Positions 18,648-26,446 of a stretch of DNA of 26,446 nt are shown here, piece by piece. The stretch covers positions 1 to 26,446 of the forward strand of contig CAMBAQ010000001.1 in assembly GCA_945863785.1 (NCBI GenBank), read 5' to 3'. Every line of letters starts with the position of its first letter. Position 1 is the stretch's first letter. The position numbers and the translations under genes are program-made. Source of the stretch: Chthoniobacter flavus. GTDB lineage: Bacteria; Verrucomicrobiota; Verrucomicrobiia; Chthoniobacterales; Terrimicrobiaceae. Under the pieces are notes generated by a model. That model was given only the letters and a program-made list of their open reading frames with translations. It made no database searches and had not been told where the DNA came from.

Positions 18648-19812
18648 GCCTTTGCTTCATCGTCTCGATCTCCCGAATCGCTTGTTCCGTCGATTCGGCC
18701 ATAACGCAGACGTGCCCCATTTTTCTTCCCGGACGAGCTTCGCTCTTTCCATAGAGGTGGAGCTTGGCGCGAGGGTTTTCGAGGACAACGTTCCAATCAG
18801 GCTCTCCATTATTCCAGAGATCGCCGAGGAGATTCCACATCACTACGGGGCTCATCAGATCAGGTGAACCCAGCGGTAGACCGCAAACAGCGCGGAGTTG
18901 TTGCTCGAACTGGCTCGTCATGCAGGCGTCAAAGGTGAAGTGACCGGAATTGTGGGGGCGGGGAGCGAGTTCGTTAACGACGAGTTGATTGTCGTCGGTG
19001 AGAAAAAACTCCACGGCTAGCAAGCCAACGACATCCAGTGCCTCTGTGATTTGCGTGGCGAGGCGGGTTGCGGATTCAAGGACGTCATCCGGAAAGCGCG
19101 CTGGAACGATCGAGAGATCCAAGATGTGGTGCGAGTGTTGGTTTTCTGAGACAGGGAAGGCCACCGTTTTTCCATCGGCGCTGCGGGCGCATACGACGGA
19201 GAGTTCGGCGCGAAAGGAGATCCATTTTTCCAGCACACCCCTTGGTGCCCCGAAACGGTTCCAGACTTCGGTGGCATCAGCTTCGGATTCCAGTTTGATC
19301 TGCCCCTTGCCGTCATAGCCGAAATCCGCCGTCTTGAGCACCGAAGGGGTTCCGATTTCTTGGAGCGCCTCGGCGAGGCTGGCGGCGGAATCCACCACGC
19401 GAAATGGCGCACAGGGAAAGCCATGGGAGTGCAGGAATGTCTTCTCGCGTTCCCGGTTCTGGCAAATGTGGAGGACTTCGCCGCGCGGATGCACGGGCCG
19501 CATCTCAGAAACGGTCTCAATTGCCGAACGCGGGATGTTCTCAAATTCGAAAGAAACCACATCCACTCCAGTGGCGAATTTTTTCAATGCATCGGCGTCC
19601 GTGTAGGGGGCGTTGACCTCGAGATCGCAGATTTGTCCTGCTGGGCAATCGGGTTGGGGTTCGTAAGCATGAACGCTGTAGCCCATGCGGCGCGCGGCGA
19701 TGGCGAGCATTCGGCCGAGTTGGCCTCCTCCAAGAATACCTACGACTCCCCCTGGGAAGATGGATTTCGATTCCGTCTGGGATTTTTTCTCAGTAGTTTG
19801 ATTGTCCATCAT
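18637..19812 (-). CDS. purK: N5-carboxyaminoimidazole ribonucleotide synthase
   Basis: GILGGGQLGRML, FEFENI, GYDGKGQ, NELAPRPHNSGH, SQFEQQLRA and RKMGHV motifs. The stop overlaps the DRTGG gene tail-to-tail by 11 nt. Confidence 0.97.
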   Translation of the reverse strand: MMDNQTTEKKSQTESKSIFPGGVVGILGGGQLGRMLAIAARRMGYSVHAYEPQPDCPAGQICDLEVNAPYTDADALKKFATGVDVVSFEFENIPRSAIETVSEMRPVHPRGEVLHICQNREREKTFLHSHGFPCAPFRVVDSAASLAEALQEIGTPSVLKTADFGYDGKGQIKLESEADATEVWNRFGAPRGVLEKWISFRAELSVVCARSADGKTVAFPVSENQHSHHILDLSIVPARFPDDVLESATRLATQITEALDVVGLLAVEFFLTDDNQLVVNELAPRPHNSGHFTFDACMTSQFEQQLRAVCGLPLGSPDLMSPVVMWNLLGDLWNNGEPDWNVVLENPRAKLHLYGKSEARPGRKMGHVCVMAESTEQAIREIETMKQRLTH

Positions 19813-21691
19813 GGCCGAACGACTGGTTTACATTTTTGCATTGTTGACTGTGGGTTTGATCCGTTGCCTGCCGCTTTCTGTGTGTTTTTTGCTCGGGCAA
19901 GCGATCGGAGCATTAATGTGGCTTATCCTGCCCGGCTACCGGCGGCTCGCAAGGGAAAATCTGACGATTGCTTTTGCTGACGAGATGTCGGAAGGGGAAA
20001 TCCGGCAATTGACTTTCCGGCATTTCACGACTCTCGGCGCCAATGCCGTTTGTGCCTTCAAGGTGCCCTCGCTCTCTCAGCGCCAGATCCTAGGCATTGT
20101 CCGCATCGAGAATCTGGATCTGATTCGGCAAAATATCGCAAACGGTCGGCCTGTGGTGTTAGCGATCAATCACATTGGAAATTGGGAACTGTACGCCCAA
20201 CTTGTTTTCCAGATACCTGAAGCCCGCTTCGGCACGGTGTATCAAGCCCTTCACAACAAGCTTGTCGATGATCTCGTGAACCGCGACCGCCGCCGCCTCG
20301 GTTTACTGACCTTTGATCGTAAGAAGGGATTTCAGGATGCACTCATGTTGCTTCGCGAGCCGGGCGGGGTGGGTGTACTAGTGGATCAGCACGCAGGAAA
20401 TAGCGGAGTTTGGACGCCGTTTTTTAATCGTCTTTGTTCGACCTCGCCGCTTGCAGCGACTCTCGCCATGCGCACCGATGCAGCAGTGATACCAGTTGCG
20501 ATTTATACTGATGGGTTCGCCCGTTGGAGGGTTGTGATGAGCGAAGAAATTCCGTGGGATGCGGATAAATCCGAACAGCTCACTCTCGACATCAATCAGG
20601 CCCTTGAGAAGCAGGTCCGTACTTCCCCGGCGGATTGGTTTTGGGTCCATAATCGCTGGAAGACACCGTTGCCGAATTTTCTCATCAATGGCGCCAAGCG
20701 CGGCATCTACCTTCCCGGTGGTGCGGCTTCGGTGAGTCCATTCTGCGTTGTCGTCCGCTCCCCGAATTGGTTGGGCGACGCAGTGATGAGCGTGGATGCC
20801 GTAAGGGCATTTAAATACGGTCGCCCCGACGCGCACCTCGCCGTGCTGACCCCTGCCAAGTTAGCCGGGTTTTGGCGCAGGGTGGGGGGCGTGGACGAAG
20901 TGATCGAAATCGAAAAAGACGAGTCCGTCTTCTCCGTTGCCCGCCGCCTGCGGGGACGTTTTCATGTGGCGGTTCTTTTTCCGAATTCCTTGCGGTCCGC
21001 TTTGGAAGTCTGGTTAGCAGGGATCCCTCGGCGTGTGGGATTCAAGGGGCATTACCGTCATTGGCTTCTAGATCAAATCATCCCCGCCGGGAAGCGGCCT
21101 CCAGCGAATCAGCCAGTGCATCAGGCCGACGTCTATTGGCGTATTGCCGCACGTTGCGGAGCCGAGGAGCGGCCTCCTGTCAATCCCCTTTGGAAGCCGA
21201 ACCGGAAGGAACGGGTGATCGGCATTTGCCCCGGCGCGGAATACGGATCCGCCAAGCGCTGGCCGGCTGATCAATTCCGCCAACTCATCCTCCAACTGAA
21301 CGAGACAATGGATTGCCAGTGGGTAATCGTCGGCACTTCCGCAGACACGCCTGTTGCAAAAAAAATTGCATTTGGCATTCCGAACATCACCGATCTGACA
21401 GGCAAAACCTCTCTCGAGGATCTCATGGATCTTTTGGAGCGAATCTCGGTTCTAGTCACGAATGATACGGGCACGATGCATCTCGCAGATTTTATTGGGA
21501 CTCCGCTGGTCTCGATTTTCGGATCTACGGAACCGACATTCACTGGCCCGCGTGGCCCGCGCAGCGTGGTGATCCGGCAGAAGGTCGAATGCAGTCCCTG
21601 CTTTCTTCGCGAGTGCCCCATCGATTTTCGATGCATGGAGGAAATCCCTATGGGAAAAGTGATCCAAGCGGTTAAATCCTCCTTCAAATAG
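19811..21691 (+). CDS. fusion of lipid A late acyltransferase (LpxL/HtrB-like) and GT9 heptosyltransferase (WaaF/RfaF-like)
   Basis: The N-terminal half has HIGNWE, LVDQHAG and WFWVHNRWK. The C-terminal half has RSPNWLGDAVM, CPGAEYGSAKRWP and NDTGTMHLA. There is no stop between them. Confidence 0.92.
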   Translation: MAERLVYIFALLTVGLIRCLPLSVCFLLGQAIGALMWLILPGYRRLARENLTIAFADEMSEGEIRQLTFRHFTTLGANAVCAFKVPSLSQRQILGIVRIENLDLIRQNIANGRPVVLAINHIGNWELYAQLVFQIPEARFGTVYQALHNKLVDDLVNRDRRRLGLLTFDRKKGFQDALMLLREPGGVGVLVDQHAGNSGVWTPFFNRLCSTSPLAATLAMRTDAAVIPVAIYTDGFARWRVVMSEEIPWDADKSEQLTLDINQALEKQVRTSPADWFWVHNRWKTPLPNFLINGAKRGIYLPGGAASVSPFCVVVRSPNWLGDAVMSVDAVRAFKYGRPDAHLAVLTPAKLAGFWRRVGGVDEVIEIEKDESVFSVARRLRGRFHVAVLFPNSLRSALEVWLAGIPRRVGFKGHYRHWLLDQIIPAGKRPPANQPVHQADVYWRIAARCGAEERPPVNPLWKPNRKERVIGICPGAEYGSAKRWPADQFRQLILQLNETMDCQWVIVGTSADTPVAKKIAFGIPNITDLTGKTSLEDLMDLLERISVLVTNDTGTMHLADFIGTPLVSIFGSTEPTFTGPRGPRSVVIRQKVECSPCFLRECPIDFRCMEEIPMGKVIQAVKSSFK

Positions 21692-21972: not shown

Positions 21973-22677
21973 TTATTCGAATGGCAACCGTGGGGCGGCG
22001 GTGAACTTGATTGTGCCGTCGGCCTCGTAGAAGGCGACGATTCCGCTTTGGAATGAGCTGTTGTATTTCAGGGGTACGCGGATTTGTTGGCTGCCGATGA
22101 TGGCGGTGGTTTCGATGGTTTCGGGCAAGCTATACCAAGTGTGATGTGACATCGGGGCGATTTCGAGGAATTCACTCGCATTGATGGATACGCGAAGGAT
22201 TTGCTGGATGACGCCATTCACGATGGTGAGGGTGTTGGGCTTTTCGTCGTCAGCGAGTTCGTGGTCGAAGTTGAGGATGGCAGCTTGGAGTTCTTGTTTT
22301 TTTCCATTCGGATCCCGTTGCCATACGAAATCCCCAAGAAGAACGACGGTTGATGCTGTGTTGGGGGCTTTGTTGAGTTCCTTTTCAAAAAAGGCCTTGG
22401 GATCAGTGGAGGCGTTTTTTTGGATTCGCAGTTTCCAGGAGGTGAATGGGAAGTCACCGCCGGAAATCTTGGAGCCTTGGGAAACTTTTTCGTATTTGTG
22501 AAAGTCTTTTATATCGAGATCGAGGCTGGGCACGCTCGTGGCGTTGATGAACTGCACCGAGGAATGCGGGGGAGGGGGAGGTTCATTCGCTGGATTTGGA
22601 GATTCCTCGGCTCCGGCGGTTGTGTGGCAAAGCCCCAATAGGGATAAGAGAACGGCGAAGATAAGGGGTGTTTTCAC
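21973..22677 (-). CDS. exported hypothetical protein (possibly DUF4397-like beta-sandwich repeats), last gene of the pilin cassette
   Basis: GTG at 22677, 1 nt after the upstream stop. Signal peptide followed by a Pro-rich linker and two related segments (VQFINATS and LTIVNGVI). Confidence 0.6.
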   Translation of the reverse strand: MKTPLIFAVLLSLLGLCHTTAGAEESPNPANEPPPPPHSSVQFINATSVPSLDLDIKDFHKYEKVSQGSKISGGDFPFTSWKLRIQKNASTDPKAFFEKELNKAPNTASTVVLLGDFVWQRDPNGKKQELQAAILNFDHELADDEKPNTLTIVNGVIQQILRVSINASEFLEIAPMSHHTWYSLPETIETTAIIGSQQIRVPLKYNSSFQSGIVAFYEADGTIKFTAAPRLPFE

Positions 22678-22678
22678 A

Positions 22679-25420
22679 TCAGGGTTTCTTGGAGTGTTCT
22701 TGGATGGCGCGGGTTCGATATTCCACCGCACCGTTGTTGTTTGTGTGAGGATAGGAATCTAAAACGACGTTCACTTCATGAATGGATTCCGAGAGCACTT
22801 TTCCCGTCGAGCCGATGGCCTGCCCGATCGCTATCACCTTGAAATTGCGGGATTGGGTATCGACCAACTCGAGTAAGGACGAAAGCAACTGCTCGCGTCC
22901 GGCATCGTTGATAGTCGCGATATTGGTAGAGGGATTGCTCCCAAGCGTGGGGCTGAAGTTTGTTGGGTTGAGTAGTTGGGGGGTGATTTTGTGAAGGTCG
23001 CTGAGATTATAATAAGGCCGGTTCGAAATCACGAGATTCGCGAGTTGGGTGGCGGCATTTGTGGTGAAGGAGGAGTTTGTAAAAGCGCGGTCGGCATTTT
23101 GCGAAAGATGATAAAACAGGGCCGTTAAAACCTCTTTCGGGGCGGTGTTGATATTGATCTTGGGGGCACGGGTCGGGATCCCATGGGCGTTTGTTTCAGC
23201 GACCGTAAATAAGTCGACGAGATGGAGGGCCCGGAATCCCGGGGAGTTCCAATTGGGCGCGGGTTTTTCTGATCCCGAGGAAGTGCTGTCATTTCTCGGG
23301 TAATCAAACTCTGGGATACCCATGCGTAACGTGCGTCCGCCGCCTGAGGCATACCACGAGTCGCTCCCAAACGTACTAAAACCAACGTCATTGAGCTGGG
23401 CGGGATCGTAGATATTACCAAGCTCGCCGATGGATTCCATTTTTGCATTTCGCAAATAAAATGGGGCATTTGTGCTTTCGGCGACCGAATAGGAGGAGGG
23501 TGCGGATGTGGGATCGGCGAGAGTGAGATCAATGCTGGAGCCTTCCAGTGGACTGGCGCGCACGATATCTCGGGAGGAAAACGTTTTGGCGTAGTCCTGC
23601 GAACTTTCATTGGTAAAGCTGTTTCTTCCATTCCATCGGACCTCGCTATTTGTTGAGGCAGGAGCTTCCCAATCATAGGGCGAAATCGCGTTCTGGCGGG
23701 GATCTCCGACGGCGCGGTAGCCTTTCGGTGCTGCAAAAAAGCCGTATGAGGGATAGTTGATGGCGAAGCGATTGGATCCGCCTAAGTTGATCCTTGTTTC
23801 AATAGTTCTTCCCATGGCGCTTTTTGGCAGGCCTTGATTGTTGGTAAAGAAGTTGGTTGCCAGATTCGCGGTGCGATCAAAGATCACGCCATTCCAACGC
23901 GCGTCAAACCGAGAGTGATGTTCGAAGAAGGCGTTGTCGCTGGCTGTTTGCTCGAGATAGGGACGATTACCGACAAGAGCGCTGCCCTTGAGGGTCGATA
24001 TAACGGTATTGGTGACCGTGGCTGTTTTGAACACCTTCATTTCGTTCGGGCGAAGGTTGGTGATGGCGATCGTGCCGGCATTGGGCAAAATCGGTCCGCC
24101 GAGACCTGGCATTTTGATAGGTCGGTAAGTGGTGAGTTCGATCGAGAGATTCCCGCTGATATTCGTCTGATAGGGGTTCCATAGCTGAACAAAAACCGTT
24201 TGCGTGATTTTGTTTGTCCAAGCTGTTCCGGATCCGGTTTCGCTGATCCAGTTGTATTTCTCGGCGATGCAAGTGAGGAGAGGAGCGAGTTCCTTGCCTG
24301 CTGGTTCGCCCAAGGGCGAGGCGTCGGAGAGGACGGTCACATCGGTGTCGGAGTCGATGTAATCGATGATCGATGCGGATATGCGTTCCAAGTAGCGGAA
24401 ATAACTCCCGCCAAGTCCATTTGACATCGCGATATCCCGGGTGCCGAAATTGGGCAGGTTGGTGTTGATGATTTGAGCCATGTTGGAAGCACGAAGTTCT
24501 GAAGTGGCTCCGAATGTGATGTTGGTGGCGCAGTTGTTGATGTTCCATTTTGGGATGTGGGCTTGAGCATAGTTGGAAAATGTGCCGTTGCTATTTGTGT
24601 AGCCGATGGGAATGAAGTCTTGGCTTGGTCCGGTCACATAAGTGTAGAGGTGTTTTTTGGATTCATAATCCGCTCGGTTGGTAAAAATCTGAGCGACGTT
24701 TTCGAGGTAGGGCTCTTTGTTTGTCGCTGACGCAAATGACAGCGCCGAGTTCGTGGTGAGAAGGTTTGTGTTTCCGGGGATTGCGATGGGAACGAGGCTG
24801 GGGGTGTTCGACCAACCGGCGCGATTGGTATTGGTGGACCAGCCGTGTTGAGCCAGATTCAACTTGGACTGCTCATCAACAACAAAAAAGGCGACGCGGG
24901 AATTTGTTTCACCCGTTGCATTCGTAAAGTAAATCCAGGGGGCATTGAAGTTGGTGGGACCGGAATTCGCTAGGATGCGGTAGGTGCCAATCAGTTTGTT
25001 GGCATTGACGGCATTGTTTGTGGTGGTCGCTTGAGCGAGGTAGTTGGCGAGGGCCGATGTCGAGGACGAACGGGTGCCTAGATAGTTTGTGAGATCGCCA
25101 GAAACCAGCGGCAACACATTCGATGGCGAATTGTTGCTGCCTGTTTGGATGTAGAAGATCGGGCTCAGTGAGGGGCTTATATTTGTGGACAAAACCAAAA
25201 ATCCGGCATGGCTTCCGATCGCTTCCGACATGGCTTGGGCGACCATGTTCGCGCCCGCTTCCGCTGCCAAATCGGCCTTGAACTTGTTCTTAAGGCTCCG
25301 TGAGACGGCGCGTTCCATAGTCATGGTTTGCAAAAAGGCCACAGTAATCGTGCAGAGGACAACGAGAACAAAAAGCGTGGTTACCAAGGCCGAGCCCTTT
25401 TTGTAATGGTTTTGCAACAT
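22679..25420 (-). CDS. Verru_Chthon cassette protein A-like large PilX/GspK-type minor pseudopilin
   Basis: Class III signal KKG|SALVTTLFVLVVL lacking Glu5, followed by A.LAAEAG, DEQSKLNL, IIDYIDSD and KININTAPKEVL, in a 913-aa protein. Confidence 0.8.
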   Translation of the reverse strand: MLQNHYKKGSALVTTLFVLVVLCTITVAFLQTMTMERAVSRSLKNKFKADLAAEAGANMVAQAMSEAIGSHAGFLVLSTNISPSLSPIFYIQTGSNNSPSNVLPLVSGDLTNYLGTRSSSTSALANYLAQATTTNNAVNANKLIGTYRILANSGPTNFNAPWIYFTNATGETNSRVAFFVVDEQSKLNLAQHGWSTNTNRAGWSNTPSLVPIAIPGNTNLLTTNSALSFASATNKEPYLENVAQIFTNRADYESKKHLYTYVTGPSQDFIPIGYTNSNGTFSNYAQAHIPKWNINNCATNITFGATSELRASNMAQIINTNLPNFGTRDIAMSNGLGGSYFRYLERISASIIDYIDSDTDVTVLSDASPLGEPAGKELAPLLTCIAEKYNWISETGSGTAWTNKITQTVFVQLWNPYQTNISGNLSIELTTYRPIKMPGLGGPILPNAGTIAITNLRPNEMKVFKTATVTNTVISTLKGSALVGNRPYLEQTASDNAFFEHHSRFDARWNGVIFDRTANLATNFFTNNQGLPKSAMGRTIETRINLGGSNRFAINYPSYGFFAAPKGYRAVGDPRQNAISPYDWEAPASTNSEVRWNGRNSFTNESSQDYAKTFSSRDIVRASPLEGSSIDLTLADPTSAPSSYSVAESTNAPFYLRNAKMESIGELGNIYDPAQLNDVGFSTFGSDSWYASGGGRTLRMGIPEFDYPRNDSTSSGSEKPAPNWNSPGFRALHLVDLFTVAETNAHGIPTRAPKININTAPKEVLTALFYHLSQNADRAFTNSSFTTNAATQLANLVISNRPYYNLSDLHKITPQLLNPTNFSPTLGSNPSTNIATINDAGREQLLSSLLELVDTQSRNFKVIAIGQAIGSTGKVLSESIHEVNVVLDSYPHTNNNGAVEYRTRAIQEHSKKP

Positions 25421-25421
25421 C

Positions 25422-26446
25422 CTAGGGGTGATTAATTTTCACTCTTGTGGTGAAGGTTTTCGTGTTTTTGAGATAGTCCGAGGTATTGGTCTCTCCTCGG
25501 AGCGTGTCCCAAGCAGCCTGATCGATACGGGCCTTGAAGCGGAGGGAACGCTCGTTATTGAGGCCGACGATCTTCAATTCCATGAGGTCGGGGGTAGGAG
25601 TGCTGGAGGAGTATGTCCAGTTCGTAAATCCATTGGTGCTGCTGGTGAGCGGGGTGACCTGAAAATCTAAGATGTTGCGGGCAAGAATCTCGCAGTTGGT
25701 GTTGGTGGGGGTGACGTCAGAGAAGGGGGCGTTTTTCAGGAGATGGGTGAAGGTCTCATTACTTTCGATAAAGTAGCGGTAGAGGTTGTAACTTTGGCGT
25801 CCATGATTTCCCGCAACGGGGCCCTTATTTCCATAAGCAAGAAAGTACGCTACGGCACAAAGCTCGCTTTTGTTGTTCGTGTTCTGCGCGGTCGCGGGGA
25901 GAGTGGTGAGAAATCCGATCTGGCTATTCGGGCGGGTCGAGGCATCGCTGCCGGGGAGGTTGGTAAGAAAGTAGGCGGAGTTTGTGGAGGGGAGGAGGTT
26001 TCGAAGGTCAGCGGAAACAACTTGCACCGCTGCTCGGGCTTCGCGGTACGCCTCGGCGCGGTTTTCTGCTGTCCGCCAGAGTGTCGTAGATCCATGAACG
26101 ATATTCAAAAGAACAACCAAAAGGATCGAAAGCAAGGAAATCGCAACGAGGATTTCCAAGAGGGAAAAGGCTTTTTTGACAGGATGGACAGGATTTTCAG
26201 GATTTCCAAGACGGGAGGATTTGGGGCGATAGGATTTGTGTTTTCTTTTTACCTGTAAGGATGCGGCGCCAAAGTTGAGGATTAGACCGATTTCCATCCC
26301 AGTGGATTGAAGATAGTTTACAAGTTGTGCTTCATGGGTGGGATGTATTTCCTGAGTGGCCTTAAGTTCGAGAATAACGGAGTTATCCACGATCACATCG
26401 GCAACAAAGTCGCCGACTTGTTCTCCTTCGTAGTAGACCGGGATGC
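25422..26446 (-). CDS. in-frame fusion: GxxExxY (PD-(D/E)XK-like) domain + repeat linker + Verru_Chthon cassette protein C-like prepilin; 5'-truncated by the window
   Basis: The frame is open to the window edge (IPVYYEGEQVGDFVADVIVDNSVILELKA...AQLVNYL..TG..IGLILNFG), then runs through NPENPVHPVKKA|FSLLEILVAISLLSILL...REARAA..V.ADL with no stop. Confidence 0.85.
   Translation of the reverse strand, partial: IPVYYEGEQVGDFVADVIVDNSVILELKATQEIHPTHEAQLVNYLQSTGMEIGLILNFGAASLQVKRKHKSYRPKSSRLGNPENPVHPVKKAFSLLEILVAISLLSILLVVLLNIVHGSTTLWRTAENRAEAYREARAAVQVVSADLRNLLPSTNSAYFLTNLPGSDASTRPNSQIGFLTTLPATAQNTNNKSELCAVAYFLAYGNKGPVAGNHGRQSYNLYRYFIESNETFTHLLKNAPFSDVTPTNTNCEILARNILDFQVTPLTSSTNGFTNWTYSSSTPTPDLMELKIVGLNNERSLRFKARIDQAAWDTLRGETNTSDYLKNTKTFTTRVKINHP
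26178..26236 (+). repeat. 9-nt CAGGAT-core tandem repeat between the GxxExxY and prepilin regions
   Basis: GACAGGATG-GACAGGATT-TTCAGGATT (26178-26204), plus degenerate GGGAGGATT (26213-26221) and GATAGGATT (26228-26236). The three tandem units encode NPENPVHPV on the coding strand. Confidence 0.85.

What the first reader, a model, noticed from the sequence alone, without database searches (positions are those of the whole stretch)
25422..26446. GxxExxY nuclease-like domain serving as the leader of a type IV prepilin
Seen in sequence: one minus-strand frame runs from a GxxExxY-family domain (about 26240 to beyond 26446) through a basic, repeat-encoded linker into a class III prepilin site, KKA|FSLLE (Phe at 26168). 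There is no ATG, GTG or TTG in frame between the domain end and the cleavage site. The nearest is an ATG at 26297, inside the nuclease-like domain. Established knowledge: prepilin peptidase cleaves on the cytoplasmic side, and prepilin leaders are normally short. Inference: either the nuclease-like domain is made as a very large leader and released into the cytoplasm by prepilin peptidase (pilus-assembly-coupled release), or a small repeat-flanked GxxExxY cassette inserted at the pilin start without killing it because the leader is cut off anyway.
Basis: partly seen in the sequence, partly recalled or inferred. Interest (0 to 1): 0.85.

Follow-up and report, generated by a model that had tools for sequence, protein, structure and literature searches.

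The report
Nuclease cassette fused as prepilin leader
A small repeat-flanked selfish gene encoding a GxxExxY nuclease-like protein sits where a pilus-subunit gene's start should be, so the subunit can apparently only be made as a 390-residue fusion whose 142-residue front half is predicted to be clipped off by prepilin peptidase; the arrangement is conserved in over a hundred lake and soil Verrucomicrobia lineages.

Summary
The minus-strand frame 26444..25422 is open. It joins the C-terminal 68 residues of a GxxExxY/PF13366 domain, through a basic linker encoded by 9-nt ATCCTG word repeats, to KKA|FSLLE (Phe codon 26168-26166). No ATG, GTG, TTG or near-cognate codon lies in between.

The window is a whole MAG contig. 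The next contig overlaps it by 149 nt and supplies the missing start (ATG, GYLESVY motif) and the left repeat arm. The full ORF is 390 aa.

Independent metagenome contigs confirm the junction, with no indels. More than 110 protein clusters (42-98% identity) show the same fused architecture. Both halves are under purifying selection (dN/dS about 0.1-0.2). Position -1 is A or G, +1 is F and +5 is E in 112 of 112 fused proteins.

In one clade the nuclease motif and the arms have decayed (dN/dS 0.5-1.0), yet the frame stays open.

Close relatives carry another GxxExxY type at the same site, with its own stop codon and a pilin start inside the arm.

Best reading: an IVS-like hairpin cassette replaced the pilin's 5' end, and the pilin is made as a fusion and freed by PilD, which the genome encodes. 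Cleavage is inferred, not shown. The scan has noted similar fusions on other DNA; I found no paper describing them.

The parts
26241..26446 (-). C-terminal 68 residues (full-ORF residues 51-118) of the GxxExxY / PD-(D/E)XK-like domain. Residues 1-50, including the ATG and the GYLESVY motif, lie on the next contig (L002:150-297, minus strand).
   Evidence: TIGR04256 77.3 bits and PF13366 71.6 bits. The C2 part scores 115.7 bits. The full-length orthologue L009 scores 140 bits. D66, E76 and K78 are invariant or nearly invariant in 59 fused proteins. dN/dS is 0.08-0.15.
26172..26240 (-). Basic linker (KHKSYRPKSSRLGNPENPVHPVKK). The model predicts it to be disordered. It is encoded by the cassette's 3' arm.
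   Evidence: 8 K/R against 1 D/E. pLDDT is below 50 for residues 124-142 of the model. Synonymous divergence is much lower than in the flanks (dS 0-0.26 against 0.4-0.7). It contains no canonical or near-cognate start codon.
26177..26212 (-). 3' arm of the cassette. It consists of GTCTTGGAAATCCTGAAAATCCTGTC plus CATCCTGTCA, with ATCCTG words at a 9-nt period, and runs into an A6 run (26177-26172). It pairs with the 5' arm on the next contig (L002:318-343).
   Evidence: The predicted duplex is -51.8 kcal/mol with 26 contiguous pairs, z = -8.5 against shuffles. The long-range stem appears in the minimum-free-energy fold of the 520-nt region. Arm words differ by cassette lineage: CAGGAT/ATCCTG in type 1, CAGAAT/ATTCTG in type 2. 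Metagenome unitigs break at 26172-26205 because the repeat is shared with other loci.
26166..26171 (-). Predicted prepilin peptidase site: Ala(-1) | Phe(+1) of KKA|FSLLE.
   Evidence: N_methyl and TIGR02532 matches. In 112 fused homologues, position -1 is A in 105 and G in 7, +1 is F in 112 and +5 is E in 112.
25422..26168 (-). Mature GspJ-like minor (pseudo)pilin: 248 residues plus the stop codon at 25424-25422.
   Evidence: The model shows a long N-terminal helix (145-198) followed by a beta domain, mean pLDDT 85.7. The best solved-structure match is the EpsI-EpsJ complex 2ret (E 1e-3, TM 0.5-0.61 by target length). dN/dS is 0.11-0.2. The TIGR02599 match covers only the first 58 profile positions.
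22679..25420 (-). Downstream 913-residue GspK/PilX-like large minor pilin of the same operon. Its start lies 2 nt after the stop of the fused gene.
   Evidence: PilX_N and T2SSK matches, and NF037980 GspK at 31.9 bits, all below their cut-offs. The same gene order holds in related loci.

Best explanation
**What it is.** A small IVS-like hairpin cassette sits between the second and third genes of a four-gene minor-pilin operon (H-, I-, J- and K-like). The cassette is one GxxExxY PD-(D/E)XK nuclease-like gene of about 0.43 kb, held between two complementary arrays of 9-nt ATCCTG words. It has replaced everything from the stop of the upstream gene to codon -1 of the J-like prepilin.

**How the fusion arises.** In this cassette lineage ('type 1') the nuclease gene has no stop codon. 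Its 3' arm is read in frame as a basic, disordered linker.

**Shown.**
- The only way to translate the pilin is from the nuclease ATG, giving a 390-residue protein.
- Both halves are under purifying selection.

**Inferred.**
- The pilin's hydrophobic helix inserts with its N-terminus inside the cell, because the linker is strongly basic.
- The genome's PilD-type prepilin peptidase cuts after Ala142 on the cytoplasmic face.
- The 248-residue pseudopilin is freed for assembly, and a 142-residue nuclease-plus-linker fragment stays in the cytoplasm.

**Evolutionary reading.**
- The cassette is tolerated at this position because prepilin leaders are discarded.
- Once it supplies the start codon, host selection for the pilin keeps its reading frame open, even where the nuclease itself decays.
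For: **Real, contiguous ORF.**
- The contigs join by an exact 149-nt overlap, and the end sequence occurs only in C1 and C2.
- The joined 390-aa ORF is 98% identical to single gene calls elsewhere.
- Independent metagenomes hold the junction, with no indels.

**No internal start.** In the window clade there is no conserved canonical start between the domain's NFG motif and Phe+1. The window itself has not even a near-cognate codon there.

**Conservation.**
- 289 homologues were found. 112 of the 120 listed are full-length fusions of 373-424 aa at 42-98% identity, and most carry PF13366, with or without PF07963.
- 13 same-genus or same-order genome loci are fused in frame.

**Selection.**
- dN/dS is 0.08-0.15 for the domain and 0.11-0.2 for the pilin, with similar dS in both halves.
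- Position -1 is A or G, +1 is F and +5 is E in 112 of 112.

**Frame kept open without domain function.** In the degenerate clade the GxxExxY motif is lost and K78 is N in some members. Domain dN/dS is 0.46-0.98. The leader has 65 variable sites out of 420, spread evenly over codon positions. There is still no stop or indel; P(no stop) is about 0.05 under neutrality for four sequences.

**Cassette nature.**
- The arm duplex is -51.8 kcal/mol, z = -8.5.
- Arm words covary with cassette type.
- On the domain tree, all 46 type-1 rows are fused. On the pilin tree, the fused state changes at least 5-6 times among 26 loci.
- Type-2 cassettes at the same site have their own stop, and the pilin starts at a TTG or GTG inside the 3' arm.
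- An uninvaded locus (L026) has its own ATG and a 30-aa leader.

**Machinery and structure.**
- PilD (A24_N_bact plus Peptidase_A24, 367 aa) is present on contig C173.
- The model shows two folded domains joined by a disordered linker. Fold matches are EpsJ for the pilin half and Cas4, Hjc and exonucleases for the front half.
Against: - Cleavage of a class III signal peptide behind a 142-residue folded domain has not been shown for any system I could find. Known leaders are short; a 26-residue archaellin leader is called unusually long (PMC12448462).
- No proteomic or ribosome-profiling data were available.
- RNA contigs cover both halves but do not bridge the junction, and DNA carry-over in those libraries is not excluded.
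- A folded N-terminal domain could hinder membrane targeting or PilD access.
- Position -1 is Ala rather than the canonical Gly, although the two neighbouring prepilins of this operon also have Ala.
- The function of the arms is open. The duplex is not stronger on the sense strand.
- Nuclease activity of GxxExxY proteins, and any role in mobility, are assumptions.
Confidence: 0.62

Rival explanations
1. Adaptive coupling: the nuclease domain is a host-recruited module. Its release into the cytoplasm is deliberately tied to prepilin processing or pilus assembly, for example one nuclease per pseudopilin, for DNA uptake or defence.
For: The domain is under purifying selection in most fused lineages (dN/dS 0.08-0.15). 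Its catalytic-type residues E27, D66, E76 and K78 are conserved. The type-1 lineage is old, with identity down to about 42%.
Against: - The same site holds unfused GxxExxY genes of another type, ORF6N genes, or nothing, in pilins that are 57-87% identical or nearly identical.
- A whole clade lets the domain decay while keeping the pilin.
- The domain comes with inverted arms like stand-alone copies elsewhere.
- Purifying selection on the domain is equally expected for a selfish element.
Confidence: 0.1
2. The fusion protein is made but not cleaved. The J-like pilin stays tethered to a cytoplasmic nuclease domain, acting as a membrane anchor for it or as an assembly-incompetent regulator.
For: No prepilin peptidase is known to accept such a long folded leader. 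The basic linker plus a transmembrane helix would give a stable type II membrane protein.
Against: - Phe+1 and Glu+5 are invariant and -1 is always A or G in 112 fused proteins. That conservation is expected only if the N-terminus is exposed and used in filament packing.
- The pilin body evolves under the same constraint as unfused orthologues, and fused and unfused alleles interchange freely on the pilin tree.
Confidence: 0.12
3. The pilin is translated separately, by non-canonical initiation, by re-initiation, or after RNA processing at the hairpin. The open frame across the junction would then be incidental.
For: - Some fused lineages have in-frame ATC or CTG codons 7-8 codons before Phe+1.
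- The arms could form an RNase III-type stem that separates the transcripts, as in rRNA intervening sequences.
Against: - The window clade has no canonical or near-cognate codon in the 36 codons before Phe+1.
- An incidental frame would be open in about a third of lineages or fewer. Yet all 46 type-1 rows and all the type-1 loci examined are open and in frame.
- The degenerate clade keeps 140 near-neutrally evolving codons free of stops and indels.
- A transcript cut at the stem would start without any start codon.
Confidence: 0.08
4. Assembly or binning artefact: a repeat-mediated chimeric join of an unrelated GxxExxY gene to the pilin gene.
For: The contig ends inside the domain. The repeat at 26172-26205 is shared with other loci and fragments unitigs.
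Against: - An independent contig in run X2 covers 26136-26338 with 0 differences. Run X1 contigs cover 25400-26208 and 26179-26417.
- Dozens of independent assemblies give the same 385-390-aa gene on contigs of up to 24-298 kb.
- Orthologous loci in other species genomes are contiguous.
Confidence: 0.02

Closest known systems
ORF-bearing intervening sequences (IVS) of 23S rRNA genes, such as the Coxiella burnetii helix-45 IVS with its S23p ORF (PMC4990558)
   Same: A small element of about 0.4-0.5 kb consisting of one short ORF held in the loop of a long stem made by complementary flanks. It is regarded as a selfish element. The GxxExxY and four-helix-bundle families are the typical small cargo genes of such repeat-flanked cassettes (own knowledge plus earlier notes of this scan; only the architecture was tested here).
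   Different: Here the host is a protein-coding operon, not rRNA. The cargo is GxxExxY (PF13366), not PF05635. The 3' arm is translated as part of a host protein. Excision by RNase III is neither needed nor shown.
Rickettsia palindromic elements and other MITE-like repeats that insert in frame into protein genes
   Same: A palindromic, repeat-armed mobile sequence that is tolerated inside an ORF and is translated as extra residues in a permissive part of the host protein.
   Different: Those elements carry no gene, are 100-150 bp long, and add a short internal peptide. This one carries a complete, selected 118-residue domain and also supplies the host gene's start codon.
Class III (prepilin) signal peptides and 'modular pilins' (pilins with an extra domain grafted on; own knowledge, for example Streptococcus sanguinis PilB and PilC)
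   Same: A G/A|F-x-x-x-E site followed by a hydrophobic helix, a cognate PilD in the genome, and an extra folded module attached to a pilin.
   Different: Known leaders are about 5-30 residues (a 26-residue one is called unusually long; PMC12448462). Known modules sit at the C-terminal side and stay on the pilin. Here the module lies before the cleavage site and would be discarded into the cytoplasm.
GspJ/EpsJ-type minor pseudopilins in GspH-I-J-K operons, and the Verru_Chthon cassette proteins (TIGR02596-02600)
   Same: A four-gene order of three prepilin-like genes plus a large GspK/PilX-like gene. The pilin half has its best fold match to EpsJ (2ret). Its N-terminal 58 positions match TIGR02599.
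   Different: All matches to the curated Verru_Chthon and Gsp models are below their cut-offs. No secretion or pilus ATPase, platform or secretin gene lies in the window or in the adjacent 1.6 kb of the next contig.

Membership tests
GxxExxY protein (TIGR04256 / PF13366 PDDEXK_3) | HMM score above the curated cut-off | tested here: met
   The window fragment scores 77.3 bits (cut-off 35) and 71.6 bits (cut-off 22). The part on C2 scores 115.7 bits. The full-length orthologue L009 scores 140 bits.
GxxExxY protein (TIGR04256 / PF13366 PDDEXK_3) | GxxExxY motif and PD-(D/E)XK-type acidic and lysine residues | tested here: met
   GYLESVY lies at residues 24-30, on contig C2. E27, D66 and E76 are invariant and K78 nearly invariant in 59 fused proteins.
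GxxExxY protein (TIGR04256 / PF13366 PDDEXK_3) | PD-(D/E)XK alpha/beta fold; nuclease activity | tested here: inconclusive
   The model is confident for residues 1-120. Foldseek matches Cas4 SSO0001, Hjc, MGME1 and alkaline exonuclease only at E 3.5e-3 to 0.2. Activity cannot be tested with these tools.
Prepilin / class III signal peptide protein (PF07963, TIGR02532) | N-methylation motif HMM above the cut-off; -1 G/A, +1 F, +5 E, then a hydrophobic helix | tested here: met
   PF07963 scores 24.1 bits against 21.2, and TIGR02532 scores 21.4 against 16.3. The site reads KKA|FSLLEILVAISLLSILLVVLL. The three positions are conserved in 112 of 112.
Prepilin / class III signal peptide protein (PF07963, TIGR02532) | Short N-terminal leader (about 5-30 residues) directly after the start codon | tested here: not met
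   The leader is 142 residues and contains a folded domain.
Prepilin / class III signal peptide protein (PF07963, TIGR02532) | Cleavage and N-methylation by a cognate prepilin peptidase | not testable with these tools
   A PilD-type gene (PF06750 107.8 bits plus PF01478 59.8 bits) is present on contig C173. Processing itself is not shown.
Verru_Chthon cassette protein C (TIGR02599) | HMM score above the curated cut-off over the whole model | tested here: not met
   46.4 bits (window) and 49.3 bits (L009) against a cut-off of 256.5. Only profile positions 1-59 of 361 match.
GspJ-type minor pseudopilin | GspJ/EpsJ fold and a GspH-I-J-K gene neighbourhood | tested here: inconclusive
   The best PDB match is 2ret (EpsI-EpsJ) at E 1e-3, TM 0.5-0.61 by target length. 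The downstream gene matches GspK (NF037980) at 31.9 bits against a cut-off of 130. The upstream gene matches PilV and TIGR02598 below their cut-offs.
IVS-type hairpin cassette | One small ORF enclosed by long complementary arms | tested here: met
   The arms are L002:318-343 and window 26187-26212. They form 26 contiguous pairs at -51.8 kcal/mol, z = -8.5, and the stem is present in the minimum-free-energy fold. Arms were recovered at all 20 related loci tested, strong (-22 to -61 kcal/mol) at most and weak at some (L015, L028 and the degenerate clade).
IVS-type hairpin cassette | Residence in an rRNA gene and excision from the transcript by RNase III | tested here: not met
   The element lies in a protein operon. 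Excision was not tested. The sense strand is not favoured over the antisense strand.
MITE/RPE-type in-frame intragenic element | A non-autonomous palindromic repeat without a gene, with dispersed copies in the genome | tested here: not met
   The element carries a selected ORF. Only three solitary ATCCTG arrays were found elsewhere in the 1.86-Mb MAG.

The most novel reading that the evidence does not exclude
Class III signal peptides tolerate a folded passenger domain of more than 140 residues ahead of the cleavage site. A family of selfish hairpin cassettes exploits this. By becoming the start and leader of a prepilin gene, the cassette gains a safe harbour in which host selection for the pilin protects its own reading frame. 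Prepilin peptidase then acts as the enzyme that separates parasite protein from host protein after translation.
Probability: 0.5. Interest if true: 0.8.

Novelty: new variant of a known kind. Interest (0 to 1): 0.72.

Why it matters
**Pilus biology.** If the fusion is processed, the accepted limits of prepilin leaders would rise from about 30 residues to a 142-residue folded domain. Prepilin peptidase could then be used, or is naturally used, to release cytoplasmic cargo.

**Mobile-element biology.**
- It shows a concrete way in which a tiny selfish gene can lock itself into a host gene: it supplies the start codon, and the host then cannot lose it or let its frame break.
- The decaying clade is a natural experiment showing the frame being kept for the host's sake.
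- It links the poorly studied GxxExxY family and the rRNA 'intervening sequence' architecture to ordinary protein operons.

**Annotation.** These 390-residue genes are currently named simply 'GxxExxY protein'. That name hides a conserved minor pilin.

Tried and rejected
1. **Strand of the stem.** I asked whether the stem works as sense-strand RNA, which G-U pairs would favour on the mRNA strand. The window looked promising, with 6 G-U pairs. Across 20 loci, however, the antisense duplex is on average stronger (-41 against -35 kcal/mol). The test gave no support.
2. **Other GxxExxY copies.** Other copies in relatives have long open frames of 228-352 aa (the 603- and 904-aa frames fetched gave no hit), which might have been further fusions. 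Those examined are upstream read-through of non-coding DNA. The genes end normally. The fusion is specific to this pilin family.
3. **A single ancient fusion with co-divergence of the halves.** Pairwise identities of the two halves correlate only moderately (r = 0.42). The trees show that the fusion travels with the cassette lineage, while pilin bodies are exchanged.
4. **My first impression that unfused orthologues also lack a start.** This was wrong. They start at a TTG or GTG inside the 3' arm.
5. **Phase variation at the A6 run.** No length variants were seen in four runs.
6. **Literature.** 'GxxExxY' occurs in 3 papers of the library, none on this topic. 'Verru_Chthon cassette' occurs in none. 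No paper on long prepilin leaders was found.
7. **Transcript continuity.** RNA contigs did not bridge the junction, so transcript continuity remains open.
8. **Wider survey.** A search of 1.84 billion representatives with residues 1-175 found 14,633 GxxExxY relatives. Only 5 of the top 150 clusters at 50% identity are fused to a pilin, and all are of this pilin family.
Full report
**1. The observation.**

On the minus strand, one frame is open from the window's last base to a TAG at 25424-25422 (340 aa).
- Its first 68 residues match the C-terminal two thirds of the GxxExxY family: TIGR04256 at 77.3 bits against a cut-off of 35, and PF13366 at 71.6 bits.
- Residues 90-113 match the prepilin N-methylation motif: PF07963 at 24.1 bits against 21.2, and TIGR02532 at 21.4 against 16.3.
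- The site reads KKA|FSLLEILVAISLL, with the Phe codon at 26168-26166.
- Between the domain and the site lies a strongly basic stretch (8 K/R, 1 D/E). It is encoded by ATCCTG words at a 9-nt period (26204-26178) and an A6 run (26177-26172).
- No ATG, GTG or TTG lies in frame between the domain's NFG motif and Phe+1, nor any CTG, ATT, ATC or ATA. The nearest start is the ATG at 26297, codon 100.

**2. Beyond the window.**

The window is the whole of contig C1 of a 223-contig, 72.6%-complete MAG. Contig C2 begins with an exact copy of the last 149 nt of C1. Overlaps of exactly 149 nt join about twenty other contig pairs of this MAG, so this is a property of the assembler. The 60-mer at the end of C1 occurs nowhere else.

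Read on the minus strand, C2 carries, in order:
- a 232-aa prepilin-like gene;
- a 167-aa prepilin-like gene (weak PilV and TIGR02598 matches);
- a 54-nt spacer containing GACAGGATTTTCAGGATTTTTAAGAT;
- an ATG that opens MEKAVLTEK...GPGYLESVY and runs into C1.

The complete ORF is 390 aa. Residues 1-118 are the GxxExxY domain, 119-142 the linker, and 143-390 the mature pilin.

The join and the frame are independently confirmed:
- The ORF is 382/390 identical to single gene calls P0003 and P0010; P0010 lies on a 24.5-kb contig.
- Sixteen DNA runs from lake, freshwater and sediment metagenomes of many studies hold 70-95% of the sequence's words.
- In run X2 a contig covers 26136-26338 with no difference. 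Across four runs no insertion or deletion was seen, including at the A6 run.

An assembly artefact is therefore excluded for practical purposes.

**3. A conserved gene, not a one-off.**

A search with the full-length orthologue of a sister species (L009) returned 289 homologues.
- 112 of the 120 listed are full-length fusions of 373-424 aa at 42-98% identity. They come from NCBI, JGI, ENA and Logan assemblies. Most carry PF13366, with or without PF07963, and are usually named only 'GxxExxY protein'.
- In 61 related genomes, 13 loci carry the in-frame fusion, one of them in another family of the order.
- In all 112 fused proteins, +1 is Phe and +5 is Glu; -1 is Ala (105) or Gly (7).
- dN/dS is 0.08-0.15 for the domain and 0.11-0.2 for the pilin, with similar dS in the two halves.
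- Domain residues E27, D66 and E76 are invariant and K78 nearly so.
- An AlphaFold model (mean pLDDT 85.7) shows a compact alpha/beta domain (1-120), a disordered linker (124-142, pLDDT below 50), a 54-residue helix and a beta domain.
- The best solved-structure matches are EpsJ for the pilin half (2ret, E 1e-3) and Cas4, Hjc, MGME1 and exonucleases for the front half. All are weak.

Because the pilin half is under purifying selection in this frame and has no start of its own, the 390-residue fusion must be the translation product. This step is as good as shown.

**4. The domain belongs to a hairpin cassette.**

- The spacer word array on C2 (L002:318-343) and the linker-coding array (26187-26212) are complementary over 26 contiguous pairs. 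The duplex is -51.8 kcal/mol (z = -8.5 against shuffles), and the long-range stem appears in the minimum-free-energy fold of the 520-nt region.
- The linker has far fewer synonymous changes than its flanks (dS 0-0.26 against 0.4-0.7). This indicates constraint on the nucleotides themselves.
- Arms were recovered at all 20 related loci tested, and the word changes with the gene lineage: CAGGAT/ATCCTG in 'type 1', CAGAAT/ATTCTG in 'type 2'.
- Stand-alone GxxExxY genes elsewhere often read into their own arm (...NPVNPVNPV) before stopping.
- The MAG also has three solitary ATCCTG arrays ending in CTGTCAAAAAA.

The architecture is that of ORF-bearing intervening sequences of 23S rRNA (PMC4990558), transplanted into a protein operon. 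Whether the arms act as RNA or as DNA is open. The duplex is not stronger on the sense strand.

**5. The site is a hot spot, and the fusion is a property of the cassette lineage.**

In the same genus, the junction between the second and third pilin genes holds one of the following:
- type-1 GxxExxY, fused in frame;
- type-2 GxxExxY with its own stop, about 40 nt before a pilin start (TTG or GTG) that lies inside the 3' arm, giving leaders such as MKILSILSKKSSA or MNSVNSVKKA;
- ORF6N genes, with pilin leaders of 45-71 residues;
- nothing, in which case the pilin has its own ATG and a 30-residue leader (L026).

So even in unfused alleles the cassette arm encodes the pilin's start and leader.

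The two trees disagree in an informative way:
- On a tree of the pilin bodies, the fused state changes at least 5-6 times among 26 loci. Starred sets on that tree mix both states: the window, L009 (both fused) and L008 (unfused); L029 (fused) and L030 (unfused); and a five-row set holding L023 (fused) with L022, L019 and L020 (unfused).
- On a tree of the GxxExxY domains, all 46 type-1 rows are fused. Type 2 is unfused except for one lineage (L028), and the tree needs 3 changes in all, so a few independent fusions are likely.

Cassette alleles are therefore exchanged among pilin alleles, and type 1 is a long-lived 'stop-less' lineage. Other GxxExxY copies in these genomes (1-11 per genome) are free-standing. 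In a scan of 1.84 billion representatives, only 5 of the top 150 clusters are fused to a pilin, all of this family.

**6. A natural experiment.**

One fused clade (P0062-P0083, L021, L055-L058) has lost the GxxExxY motif (now ELVTFECFY). It has K78N in some members and has degraded arms (duplex about -24 kcal/mol).
- Its domain dN/dS is 0.46-0.98.
- 65 of 420 leader sites vary, spread evenly over codon positions (24/15/26). Only 21 of 735 sites vary in the pilin part.
- All members are still 385 aa with no stop or indel. For the four DNA sequences alone, P(no stop) is about 0.05 under neutrality.

This is what is expected if the frame is kept only because the pilin needs it.

**7. Mechanism.**

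*Shown:*
- one ORF;
- no internal start;
- selection on both halves;
- a conserved cleavage and packing motif;
- a PilD-type peptidase gene (A24_N_bact plus Peptidase_A24) in the genome.

*Inferred from the established topology of prepilins (cleavage on the cytoplasmic face, positive-inside rule):*
- the helix inserts with the basic linker and the nuclease domain inside the cell;
- PilD cuts after Ala142;
- the pseudopilin joins the H-I-J-K tip complex;
- the 142-residue fragment stays in the cytoplasm.

I put about 0.62 on this whole chain. Rivals are:
- an uncleaved tethered protein, 0.12;
- adaptive coupling of nuclease release, 0.10;
- separate initiation or RNA processing, 0.08;
- artefact, 0.02.

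**8. Comparison and novelty.**

- The front half is a member of TIGR04256/PF13366.
- The pilin half meets the class III motif tests but fails the 'short leader' feature. It is not a member of TIGR02599 by that model's cut-off (46 bits against 256.5).
- The element works like an rRNA IVS or an in-frame palindromic element, but it differs from both: it carries a selected gene and donates the host gene's start.
- I found no paper on this. A 26-residue leader is already called unusually long (PMC12448462).
- Earlier notes of this scan describe similar GxxExxY or four-helix-bundle cassettes fused to prepilins in Patescibacteria and an alphaproteobacterium. The phenomenon therefore recurs on other DNA. 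This case adds a large, well-sampled Verrucomicrobia family, allelic turnover at one site, and the decaying clade.

I rate it a new variant of known kinds, with interest 0.72.

Noticed in passing
Related loci L024:957-1415 and L018:359-1372 (the same junction in same-genus genomes): Instead of a GxxExxY cassette, these alleles carry ORF6N-domain genes (PF10543, 102-104 bits) between the second and third pilin genes. In L018 and L032 the pilin then has a leader of 45-71 residues. In L024 the pilin start lies in an ATTCTG-word array like a type-2 arm.
   Followed up: partly
Own genome, outside the window: C151:322-344, C164:287-319, C175:2318-2360: Solitary arrays of ATCCTG words ending in CTGTC(T)AAAAA lie in intergenic DNA, with no GxxExxY gene and no obvious inverted partner. 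They may be half-remnants or target sites of the cassette family.
   Followed up: partly
Loci L055-L058 (degenerate fused clade): The 420-nt leader part diverges about five times faster than the pilin part, even at synonymous sites (dS 0.07-0.15 against 0.006-0.044). Relaxed selection alone does not explain the synonymous gap. Recombination or a sweep of the pilin part, or local hypermutation, are possibilities.
   Followed up: no
Proteins P0121, P0125, P0128, P0135 and about 25 others: Proteins of 250-295 residues with two GxxExxY domains in tandem are common among the 50%-identity representatives. They suggest read-through between adjacent cassettes or true duplications.
   Followed up: no
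window 21973-22731 (-): A 252-residue ORF with no Pfam match overlaps the end of the 913-residue GspK/PilX-like gene by about 50 nt. It has a hydrophobic N-terminal segment (KTPLIFAVLLSLLGL) and may be a fifth gene of the operon.
   Followed up: no
window 19802-21691 (+): A single 629-residue ORF combines a lipid A acyltransferase domain (PF03279) with a heptosyltransferase domain (PF01075). This is a fusion of two LPS-core enzymes.
   Followed up: no
window 26298-26446 and the ends of about 40 contigs of the MAG: About twenty pairs of contigs overlap by exactly 149 nt (a few by 142-147 nt). The MAG could therefore be scaffolded further simply by chaining these overlaps.
   Followed up: partly
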